The notes under the pieces were generated by a model, which saw nothing but the letters and a program-made list of their open reading frames with translations, was not told the DNA's origin and made no database searches. The translations under genes and the position numbers were made by a program. 64,000 nt of DNA from a virus. Its lineage: Duplodnaviria; Heunggongvirae; Uroviricota; Caudoviricetes. The stretch's first letter is position 1. Every line of letters starts with the position of its first letter. The stretch covers positions 32,001-96,000 of IMG/VR virus record IMGVR_UViG_3300015177_000008; one strand, 5' to 3'. Shown here piece after piece: positions 18,819-20,623 of this stretch.

Positions 18819-18875
18819 CTAAGGAAAAGCGGAATGGCCTTTGACGTTAAAATGCTCTAACTGGAGGTTGTTCAT
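18819..18875 (-). pseudogene. Truncated 5' remnant of a backbone gene (18 codons) at the right junction
   Basis: Backbone-type start context gagaaaaacacATG plus upstream palindrome (18919-18938), but the frame stops after 18 codons where AT-rich DNA begins. Confidence 0.3.
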
Positions 18876-18936
18876 GTGTTTTTCTCTTATCGTTTAGTTA
18901 CTACATTCTTACACAAACCAAGTAAGTGTTTACCTA

Positions 18937-20623
18937 TCATTTAACGCGTTTGAAAACGTATACGCTGACTGTGATCCCTGTGTCTTCAAACTCGTTGGTA
19001 AACGACTTCCCTCTGGCATAAACGTAATTATCCATCGTCATCCAGTCCAGTATTGGCGCAGTGCCCGGCAATACTGCTACAAGACGCCCGCCGACTTTCA
19101 GATGCCCCAGCGCAGCCAGCGTGTGCTCTCTATGACGACCAAGCGAGTACGGCGGGTTCATAACGATTTTGTCGAACTGATAACCTGCGTTGTCCTCAGA
19201 CCACTTTATGAAGTCGCAGCAAATCGTGTTCGTATACCCTTTTCCACGCAGGATATCAGCAAAGAGAGGTGCGATTTCTATGCAGGTAACATCTTCCAGA
19301 TCGGCGTTAATATAGGCCAGAAGATCCCCACGTCCGGCTTGAGGCTCCAACAGCTTCTCACCAGGCTTCAATTCAGTGGCTCTTGCAACGTACTCAGCAA
19401 TCAAGCGTGGGGTAGGGTAGAACTGGTGTGATTTTGTATCCGGTATTAAACCGGTAGCCACAATCGTATTTAGCGTATGGCCGATGTCATACGGGAACTG
19501 CCAGTGCTTTTTCTCCTGCACGCCGCCAATGAAGCTCAGTGTGCGCTCAAGCTCTTCCACCTGCGACTTCTGGAGAGCTGAATCAGAGAAGTACCATACT
19601 CCTTTGTCTTTGCTCAATCGCCCGTCACGAAGCGCAGTGCGAACCGGGACGGAGATCGTCTTCTGGATTAGCCCGAACTGCTTTGGTGCCCGTGTTTTTT
19701 GGCGCTCTGCGGCATGGCGCGGGGATTGCTGCAGGCATACTGTAAGCCAGCACCTCATTCAACTTCCAGGCCACGTCAGGATGTATTTCAAAGTGAACGT
19801 TGCCGTTCTTGAACATCTTCACGCGCATCAGATTTCCATCGACGTTCATCCAGTCACCGGTCTGGCAGTCGTTTGCCCGATACGCAGCTGATAGCACCTC
19901 AGCAGTGCGGTTGATGGTAATAAATTCTTTGTGCGCGAAGAAATGAAGCAAAACACGCAGATCGTCGATATAGTCCTCTTTGCGATAGTTCACACTAACG
20001 CTGTCCCGCCAGAAATCAGAAATGCAGTCAGCGATTATCAGACGCTCGCTGAAACCGTTCGTCTTATTTGTCTTGTGCGCAGGACTCAGCGCCTTAAACA
20101 AGCCATACACGCGCTCGGAGAGATATTTGTGCCTGTCATTCAGCAAATTAAGCATCGTTGGTATGACCGTTTCTGCTTTGAACTCCGGTACACCAACGAA
20201 CTCTTTAACCTTCATCTGATAGCCGGTTCTGTCAGTTTTGATGACTTCCTGCTTGCCCTCGATAAATTGCTCACGCCACTCGTCGCGACGGGAAGCTGGC
20301 ATGATCAGCAAAACGTTAGTCATATCCGTGACCTTCCTCCAGTACTCGGCCCAAATATTCTGTTTCACCCATTCCAGATCGACTTTATCCAACCAACCTC
20401 GATTTAAACGCGAGCGATCTTCATCTGGTCGATGGTTTAGTCTCAGCAGGCGATTAATCATGTTGTGGCGTTCGTCGCCATAAACGAAGTCGTGTACCTG
20501 ATACATGAAGTCGATCTCTTTCTCGCACTCGGCCACGATTTCGTGGATGACATTCATTTCCTGACGATAGTCGATAGCCGTGTTTGAGCTGGCATCGTCG
20601 ATGATGGAAAGGGCTGTATTCAT
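18937..20623 (-). pseudogene. N6-adenine/N4-cytosine-type DNA methyltransferase (gamma-class order), split by a frameshift at an A6 tract
   Basis: Two overlapping ORFs (19625-20623 and 18937-19758) in different frames; the downstream one has FYPTP, LEPQAGRGDLL (SAM motif I) and NPPY (motif IV); both frames cross gccaaaaaacacgg near 19690-19700. Confidence 0.6.

What the first reader, a model, noticed from the sequence alone, without database searches (positions are those of the whole stretch)
18819..18938. Backbone gene start truncated after 18 codons at the right junction
A family-2 palindrome (18919-18938) and a canonical backbone start context gagaaaaacacATG (18873-18875) open a minus-strand frame that stops after 18 codons, exactly where AT-rich island DNA (about 25 percent GC) begins. 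This looks like the scar of an insertion or deletion that removed the body of a backbone gene.
Basis: seen in the sequence. Interest (0 to 1): 0.45.

Follow-up and report, generated by a model that had tools for sequence, protein, structure and literature searches.

The report
Stub of a phage-plasmid backbone gene
The 18-codon frame is the leftover start of a 234-codon gene of an SSU5-type phage-plasmid, cut off where a 6.2-kb adhesin-and-regulator island replaced several accessory genes; it is a correct observation but an ordinary scar.

Summary
Confirmed and ordinary. The window is an E. coli SSU5/pHCM2-type phage-plasmid, matching NZ_CP117002.1 at 99.9-100% over the stretches compared.

**The stub.** On the minus strand, ATG 18875-18873 opens MNNLQLEHFNVKGHSAFP and stops at TAG 18821-18819. 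Bases 18821-18875 are the first 55 nt of a 234-aa backbone gene (phrog_8364, Ead/Ea22-like C-terminus). That gene is intact in pAMPD1, phage Cyrano and SSU5.

**The breakpoint.** Similarity to island-free relatives begins exactly at 18821. The stop codon is made of one backbone base and two island bases.

**What replaced the gene body.** About 4.6 kb of accessory genes in Cyrano is replaced by a 6.2-kb island (about 12634-18820). The island carries an FdeC-like inverse autotransporter, a PapX-like MarR, PerC and a 27% GC tail.

**Distribution.** Of 167 complete E. coli genomes carrying this backbone segment, 165 lack the island. The same junction occurs in at least 15 independent assemblies, so it is not an artefact.

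**A second junction.** CP056250.1 shares the left junction but keeps 62 codons and lacks the AT-rich tail. This suggests separate right-side deletions from a common ancestor.

**Mechanism.** No mobile-element signature flanks the island, so illegitimate recombination is inferred.

The palindrome and start context are real recurring backbone motifs.

The parts
18819..18875 (-). Stub ORF of 18 codons plus TAG. Bases 18821-18875 are the 5' end of the backbone phrog_8364 / Ead-Ea22-like gene. The AG of the stop (18820-18819) is island DNA.
   Evidence: Translation; intact homologue; alignments; homology onset at 18821.
18876..18886 (-). Ribosome-binding and start context GAGAAAAACAC directly upstream of the ATG; backbone DNA.
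   Evidence: recurrent context; identical in Cyrano and pAMPD1.
18918..18937 (.). Backbone intergenic palindrome with core 18920-18935. On the minus strand it is followed by the conserved TGTGTAAGAAT. It lies directly after the DUF4942 stop and 45 nt upstream of the stub ATG.
   Evidence: conserved in SSU5, Cyrano and pAMPD1; no stable RNA hairpin.
18937..20623 (-). Upstream backbone gene encoding a DUF4942 protein (SSU5_095 'DNA methyltransferase' homologue). It is frameshifted here by one extra base in the T-run 19695-19700.
   Evidence: RefSeq flag 'frameshifted'; intact 561-aa versions in L005, L007, L010-L012.
18560..18820 (.). AT-rich right end of the island (27% GC), upstream of perC. 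It is absent from island-free relatives and from CP056250.1.
18260..18559 (-). perC-family regulator gene (99 aa).
   Evidence: Pfam PF06069, 53.9 bits against a cut-off of 22.6; annotation.
17597..18085 (-). MarR-family regulator, about 52% identical to PapX.
12811..17055 (-). Inverse autotransporter adhesin (1414 aa, FdeC-like).
12634..12810 (.). Left end of the island. There is no similarity to Cyrano upstream of the humD-like ATG.
12322..12633 (-). Backbone UmuD'/HumD-like S24 gene at the left junction. It carries an in-frame 78-nt internal deletion relative to Cyrano (103 aa against 129 aa).

Best explanation
The frame at 18875-18819 is a non-functional 5' remnant of a conserved accessory gene of SSU5/pHCM2-type phage-plasmids. 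The intact gene is 234 aa, belongs to phrog_8364, has unknown function and has an Ead/Ea22-like C-terminal third.

In this lineage, the DNA from codon 19 of that gene to just upstream of the humD-like gene was replaced. In phage Cyrano that stretch is about 4.6 kb and holds seven ea-type and hypothetical genes. The replacement is a 6.2-kb horizontally acquired module: an inverse-autotransporter adhesin, a PapX-like MarR, PerC and an AT-rich tail.

The upstream palindrome, ribosome-binding site, ATG and first 18 codons survived. The first base of codon 19 now joins two island bases to form TAG.

Shown: the homology, the breakpoint to the base, the polarity (intact is ancestral) and single-origin inheritance of the junction.

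Inferred: the joint arose by illegitimate, microhomology-type recombination, because no mobile-element signature is present. It is also probably a secondary deletion from an ancestor that held more of both the gene and the island. I put that last step at about 0.55.
For: **Breakpoint and homology.**
- The stub translates as described.
- The intact gene in pAMPD1 begins MNNLQLEHFNVTGHSDFPFKF....
- Alignments put the end of similarity at 18820/18821.
- Megablast against plasmids and against 5,426 complete E. coli genomes starts at the same base.

**Polarity.**
- 165 of 167 E. coli genomes with this backbone segment lack the island.
- 130 PLSDB plasmids hold at least 80% of the segment missing here.
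- Intact homologues exist in phages Cyrano, PhiR41_1, CMS-2020a, SSU5 and Klebsiella relatives.
- 129 protein clusters from Escherichia, Salmonella, Citrobacter, Enterobacter and Klebsiella match, mostly on contigs of about 100-115 kb.

**Synteny.** Cyrano shows DUF4942 - Ead/Ea22 - ea genes - S24 - apbC - metG. The window matches Cyrano up to 12612 and again from 18821.

**Single origin, not an artefact.** The junction is identical in L001, L004-L013, L017-L019 and L023. This includes a lineage whose PerC is only 91% identical.

**Foreign character of the insert.** GC is 26-33% across 17062-18820 against 45% for the window.

**No mobile-element signature.** No IS and no terminal repeats were found.

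**Secondary deletion.** CP056250.1 has the same left junction and the same humD deletion. Its right junction sits at codon 62, joined to the perC ribosome-binding site through the 6-bp microhomology CTCCAA.
Against: - The donor of the island was not found, so microhomology at this particular junction cannot be read.
- No ancestor holding both codons 19-62 and the AT-rich tail was recovered, so the two-deletion scenario rests on parsimony alone.
- The stub carries three substitutions (18829, 18831, 18841) seen in no island-free plasmid. These could mean a slightly different parental allele rather than decay after truncation.
Confidence: 0.95

Rival explanations
1. Junction A (18 codons) is the primary insertion joint, made in a single illegitimate recombination. 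The 62-codon junction of CP056250.1 arose later, when an island-bearing plasmid recombined with an intact backbone plasmid through the CTCCAA microhomology.
For: Junction A is by far the commoner. All 15 or more loci recovered through PerC or junction-side patterns have it, including a diverged lineage. The exact PerC protein is indexed in 546 blocks of the collection. Junction B was seen once, in a plasmid whose perC and marR are degraded. SSU5-type backbones are visibly mosaic, for example in the presence or absence of 20683-21701.
Against: It needs an extra inter-plasmid event. The shared left junction and shared humD internal deletion are explained just as well by one ancestor followed by two simple deletions.
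Confidence: 0.35
2. The 18-codon ORF is a genuine small gene or leader peptide, kept because it is translated or because its translation or transcription feeds the downstream perC-marR-adhesin genes.
For: The palindrome, the -10-like TGTGTAAGAAT, the ribosome-binding site and the ATG are all intact and conserved. No terminator-like site lies between the stub and perC on the minus strand, and no sigma-70-like promoter was scored in 18200-19100. The stub length is unchanged across diverged island-bearing lineages.
Against: Its sequence is simply residues 1-18 of a 234-aa protein, and the stop is created by the joint itself. It varies without pattern: N2S in L007, L010 and L012, plus T12K and D16A in all junction-A copies. 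The sister plasmid has a 66-aa version. RefSeq annotates nothing there. Conservation across 57 nt in closely related plasmids carries no weight.
Confidence: 0.04
3. The junction is an assembly chimera or sequencing artefact.
For: None found. The composition change is abrupt, which is the only feature that could raise the suspicion.
Against: The 420 nt across the junction are identical in independent assemblies: complete genomes, draft genomes, metagenomes and IMG/VR contigs.
Confidence: 0.01

Closest known systems
Ead/Ea22-like accessory gene of SSU5-type phage-plasmids (phrog_8364; CYRAN_91 of phage Cyrano, SSU5_096, WP_001061713.1 of pAMPD1)
   Same: Same position directly downstream of the DUF4942 gene. 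Same palindrome, ribosome-binding site and ATG. First 18 codons are 16/18 identical at the protein level and 52/55 at the DNA level.
   Different: Only 18 of 234 codons remain. Three substitutions occur only in the stub lineage.
Cargo (moron or accessory-region) replacement in phage-plasmids, as described for SSU5, P1 and N15 groups with conserved phage genes and variable accessory genes (PMC7969092; resistance-gene cargo in PMC9600943)
   Same: A variable block sits between conserved backbone genes. The foreign DNA has deviating composition and is absent from most relatives.
   Different: The cargo is an adhesin with two regulators rather than resistance genes. No IS, transposon or integron borders it. 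[quoted passage not shown]
Junction B of plasmid pRHBSTW-00905_2 (CP056250.1)
   Same: Same island, same left junction, same truncated gene.
   Different: 62 backbone codons are kept. The 250-bp AT-rich tail is missing. The joint lies at the perC ribosome-binding site with CTCCAA microhomology. perC and marR are degraded.

Membership tests
SSU5/pHCM2-type phage-plasmid backbone | Nucleotide similarity and gene order shared with SSU5 and its E. coli relatives around the locus. | tested here: met
   96.5% identity to phage Cyrano over 3.2 kb and 88.5% to SSU5 over 1.8 kb, with the same gene order RNase H - ... - DUF4942 - Ead-like.
SSU5/pHCM2-type phage-plasmid backbone | Replicon of about 100-115 kb that is non-mobilizable and plasmid-borne. 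| tested here: met
   The matching record is 108,353 bp, circular and non-mobilizable. 436 of 474 matching records are non-mobilizable. All 169 places found in E. coli genomes are on plasmids.
SSU5/pHCM2-type phage-plasmid backbone | Phage structural and lysis genes present. | not tested
   The rest of the window was not examined for them.
phrog_8364 / Ead-Ea22-like protein | Full-length protein of about 229-234 aa matching the profile end to end. | tested here: not met
   The intact homologue matches positions 1-234 of 234 at E = 4e-147. The window keeps residues 1-18 only. It is a gene fragment, not a member.
phrog_8364 / Ead-Ea22-like protein | N-terminus and upstream context orthologous to the family's gene. 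| tested here: met
Genomic island / horizontally acquired cargo | Present in few relatives, with deviating base composition. | tested here: met
   2 of 167 E. coli genomes with this backbone carry it. GC is 26-33% across 17062-18820 against 45% for the window.
Genomic island / horizontally acquired cargo | Integrase, transposase, IS element or flanking direct or inverted repeats at the borders. | tested here: not met
   No repeats pair the two ends. No IS-type multi-record matches occur in 12290-13000 or 16500-18820.
PerC family | Pfam PF06069 above the gathering score. | tested here: met
   53.9 bits against 22.6.
PapX/FocX group of MarR regulators | MarR domain plus close similarity to PapX. 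| tested here: inconclusive
   The MarR domain is met: PF01047 at 42.7 bits against 24.6. Identity to plasmid papX is only about 52%, and no NCBIfam equivalog was reached.
FdeC (EaeH) adhesin | Equivalog-level match to FdeC. | tested here: inconclusive
   The sister copy is named FdeC in its record. Inverse-autotransporter beta, Big_1 and Invasin_D3 domains are present. Every NCBIfam hit is far below its cut-off.
Intrinsic terminator (as a reading of the palindrome) | Stable GC-rich RNA hairpin followed by a U-run. | tested here: not met
   Folding energy is no better than shuffles: -5.1 kcal/mol, z = +1.2. The scan calls no terminator there.

The most novel reading that the evidence does not exclude
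The surviving palindrome, -10-like box, ribosome-binding site and stub act as a phage-plasmid-controlled transcription entry into perC-marR-adhesin. Adhesin expression would then follow the regulatory state of the phage-plasmid. The recurring palindrome ATAGGTAAGYRCTTACCTAT would be the operator of a still unidentified SSU5-family regulator.
Probability: 0.1. Interest if true: 0.45.

Novelty: already known. Interest (0 to 1): 0.15.

Why it matters
The stub has little importance in itself. Its use is as a base-precise marker of where an adhesin-and-regulator module entered the variable accessory region of a widespread E. coli phage-plasmid lineage.

Together with the second junction in CP056250.1, it shows that this region is reshaped by small deletions of illegitimate-recombination type (6-bp microhomology is visible at junction B only) rather than by IS elements or integrases. 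The cargo is the more notable part: pHCM2-type plasmids have been described as devoid of virulence factors (PMC8085198), yet this lineage carries an inverse-autotransporter adhesin with PerC and PapX-like regulators.

Tried and rejected
**Donor search.** None of these found a donor.
- Megablast of 17060-18900 against 5,426 E. coli genomes gave no chromosomal place.
- A scan of GTDB representative genomes with the MarR protein gave no relative.
- A search with PerC found only three clusters. The largest of them, looked up, lies on the same kind of plasmid with the same junction; the other two are known only from contigs under 2 kb.
- Metagenome and IMG/VR pattern scans returned only junction-A contigs.

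**Residual similarity.** I compared the island ends with the DNA they replaced in Cyrano, pAMPD1 and SSU5. Only chance 10-11-mers turned up.

**Left junction.** I first read the left breakpoint as lying inside the humD-like gene with a chimeric start. Alignment showed an in-frame 78-nt internal deletion between imperfect GCNGCNGAT repeats, with the true ATG retained. The island therefore ends near 12634.

**RNA and signal scans.**
- Rfam search of 17000-19200 gave nothing credible.
- The palindrome read as an RNA hairpin or terminator is not supported.
- The sigma-70 promoter scan of 18200-19100 found no sites, so no promoter claim is made.

**Other leads.**
- A ColV-type Salmonella plasmid carries a related adhesin 3' end at 92% identity. 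It lies next to the aerobactin genes and is cut by IS66, so it is not the donor context.
- A literature search found no description of this island on a phage-plasmid.

Full report
**What the window is**

The region 16500-20500 matches plasmid p108_MLI108-3 of E. coli MLI108K3 (NZ_CP117002.1, 108,353 bp, circular, non-mobilizable) at 100%. It matches 473 further plasmids, mostly about 100-115 kb and non-mobilizable, from Escherichia, Salmonella, Klebsiella, Enterobacter and Citrobacter.

The flanking backbone is 96.5% identical to phage Cyrano and 88.5% identical to Salmonella phage SSU5, with the same gene order. The window is therefore part of an SSU5/pHCM2-type phage-plasmid.

**The observation**

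On the minus strand, ATG at 18875-18873 opens MNNLQLEHFNVKGHSAFP and stops at TAG 18821-18819.

- GC is 26% for 18575-18820 against 45% for the window.
- The start context GAGAAAAACACATG is one of a set of similar minus-strand start contexts: 19 matches against 9.2 expected.
- The palindrome at 18920-18935 belongs to a motif AGGTAA-N4-TTACCT, often extended to ATAGG...CCTAT. It recurs at 23891, 26020, 36351, 41035 and 61351: 11 matches against 1.8 expected.
- The five copies that lie within the annotated record stretch (18920-41035) fall between annotated genes; 61351 lies outside that stretch and was not checked.

**What the frame is**

In pAMPD1 (L002) the same palindrome, ribosome-binding site and ATG open a 234-aa gene that begins MNNLQLEHFNVTGHSDFPFKFTLKG.... 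Window 18821-18875 aligns to its first 55 nt with three differences. To the left of 18821 there is no similarity at all.

Megablast against PLSDB and against 5,426 complete E. coli genomes begins at that same base. The stop codon consists of the first base of codon 19 (T, window 18821) plus two island bases.

The intact gene:

- matches phrog_8364 end to end (E = 4e-147, unknown function);
- has no Pfam or NCBIfam family;
- is annotated 'Ead-Ea22 protein' in Cyrano;
- has residues 156-229 about 45% identical to ead/Ea22-like proteins of HK620-type phages.

Homologues fall into 129 clusters, mostly on contigs of about 100-115 kb, across five enterobacterial genera.

**Polarity**

- 165 of 167 complete E. 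coli genomes that carry this backbone segment lack the island.
- 130 PLSDB plasmids hold at least 80% of the segment missing here.
- SSU5, Cyrano and Klebsiella relatives have the full gene.

The long gene is ancestral and the stub is derived.

**What replaced the gene body**

Against Cyrano, the window is collinear up to 12612 and again from 18821. Closer alignment shows that the UmuD'/HumD-like S24 gene (12322-12633) keeps its own ATG. It has lost 78 nt in frame between imperfect GCNGCNGAT repeats. The foreign block is therefore about 12634-18820 (6.2 kb).

It replaces about 4.6 kb of Cyrano (L015 6056-10629), which holds the rest of the Ead-like gene and seven ea-type or hypothetical genes.

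The block encodes:

- an inverse-autotransporter adhesin of 1414 aa, with IAT_beta, Big_1 and Invasin_D3 domains; the sister copy is named FdeC in its own record, but no equivalog-level match was obtained;
- a MarR regulator about 52% identical to PapX;
- a PerC-family regulator;
- a 261-bp AT-rich tail.

No IS fragment and no terminal repeats border the block. Illegitimate recombination is therefore the inferred mechanism.

**Inheritance of the junction**

The 420 nt across the junction are identical in L001, L004, L006, L008, L009 and L013. They differ by only a few substitutions in L005, L007, L010, L011 and L012. The same junction occurs in:

- two IMG/VR contigs;
- a gut metagenome contig;
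- a second complete genome;
- a lineage whose PerC is only 91% identical and which has lost the adhesin gene.

The exact PerC protein is indexed in 546 blocks of the collection and never on a contig above 200 kb. The joint is real, arose once, and predates diversification of the island-bearing lineage.

**Substitutions in the stub**

Three substitutions in the stub are found in no island-free plasmid. They lie at 18829, 18831 and 18841 and give T12K, a silent change and D16A. The best island-free match is 77 of 80 nt in both collections.

All three lie within 21 nt of the breakpoint. If three changes fell at random over those 80 nt, the chance of that is about 0.02 (my arithmetic). This fits relaxed constraint or error-prone repair at the joint, but it is weak evidence.

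**A second junction**

CP056250.1 (L003) carries the same island at about 94% identity. It has the same left junction and the same humD deletion. Its right junction differs:

- 62 backbone codons are retained, giving a 66-aa ORF;
- they are fused directly to the perC ribosome-binding site;
- the joint runs through the shared hexamer CTCCAA;
- the 250-bp AT-rich tail is absent.

Neither junction can be derived from the other by simple deletion. The most economical reading is one ancestral acquisition followed by two independent right-side deletions. The alternative is that junction A is primary and junction B arose by recombination with an intact plasmid. I favour the first at about 0.55. No ancestor was recovered.

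**Function of what is left**

Nothing suggests that the 18-aa product matters. The upstream element is conserved as far as SSU5: palindrome followed by TGTGTAAGAAT. It does not fold as RNA and is not called as a terminator. A protein-binding site at a promoter is the more likely reading, but this is untested.

A transcript started there would now run into perC. That is the only non-trivial possibility left open, and I give it about 0.1.

**Verdict**

The feature is an ordinary gene remnant at a cargo junction. Interest is low. The cargo itself and the recurring palindrome are the more interesting by-products.

Noticed in passing
window 19695-19700 (gene 18937-20623, minus strand): The DUF4942 / SSU5_095-like methyltransferase gene is split into 332-aa and 273-aa frames by one extra base in a homopolymer run (6 T here, 5 in intact copies). 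The same frameshift appears in L004, L006, L008, L009 and L013. L005, L007 and L010-L012 are intact. RefSeq flags it 'frameshifted'.
   Followed up: yes
window 18920, 23891, 26020, 36351, 41035, 61351: A 16-20-bp palindrome (ATAGGTAAGYRCTTACCTAT) recurs; the five copies from 18920 to 41035 lie between annotated co-directional backbone genes, and 61351 was not checked against the annotation. It is conserved in Cyrano, pAMPD1 and SSU5 and often sits next to the stop codon of the upstream gene. It does not form a stable RNA hairpin. It is a candidate operator, and the regulator is unknown.
   Followed up: partly
window 12322-12633 (minus strand): The UmuD'/HumD-like S24 gene has an in-frame 78-nt deletion between imperfect 9-bp repeats (103 aa against 129 aa in Cyrano). 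The deletion is shared by CP056250.1, where an extra base also frameshifts the gene.
   Followed up: yes
L003 (CP056250.1) 8017-8217 and 7760-8035: This is the alternative right junction. It gives a 66-aa stub (62 backbone codons) fused at the perC ribosome-binding site through CTCCAA. perC and marR are degraded in this plasmid.
   Followed up: yes
L002 (pAMPD1) 4679-4812: A 134-bp IS1 end fragment sits directly after apbC in the common island-free architecture. It appears to be joined to the apbC terminator through the shared GGYGGTGC. That lineage therefore lost its ea-type genes by a different, IS1-associated event.
   Followed up: partly
L019 (GCA_976942745.1), equivalent to window 12408-17575: This variant of the island-bearing plasmid has perC (91% identical) and marR but has lost the whole adhesin gene. 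L005 and L011 carry a shorter adhesin of 1209 aa.
   Followed up: partly
window about 9150-12284: metG and apbC, a gene pair I recall from memory as adjacent on the E. coli chromosome (not tested here), sit in the phage-plasmid next to the variable region. They are also present in Cyrano and pAMPD1.
   Followed up: no
window about 25499-26005 and 29631-30107: The record marks the phage Dam-type methyltransferase gene as frameshifted. A dfrA51 trimethoprim-resistant dihydrofolate reductase gene lies within the nucleotide-metabolism block (thyA, nrdAB).
   Followed up: no
window 18829, 18831, 18841: Three substitutions are private to the stub lineage, and all lie within 21 nt of the breakpoint. 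No such changes occur in the next 59 nt.
   Followed up: partly
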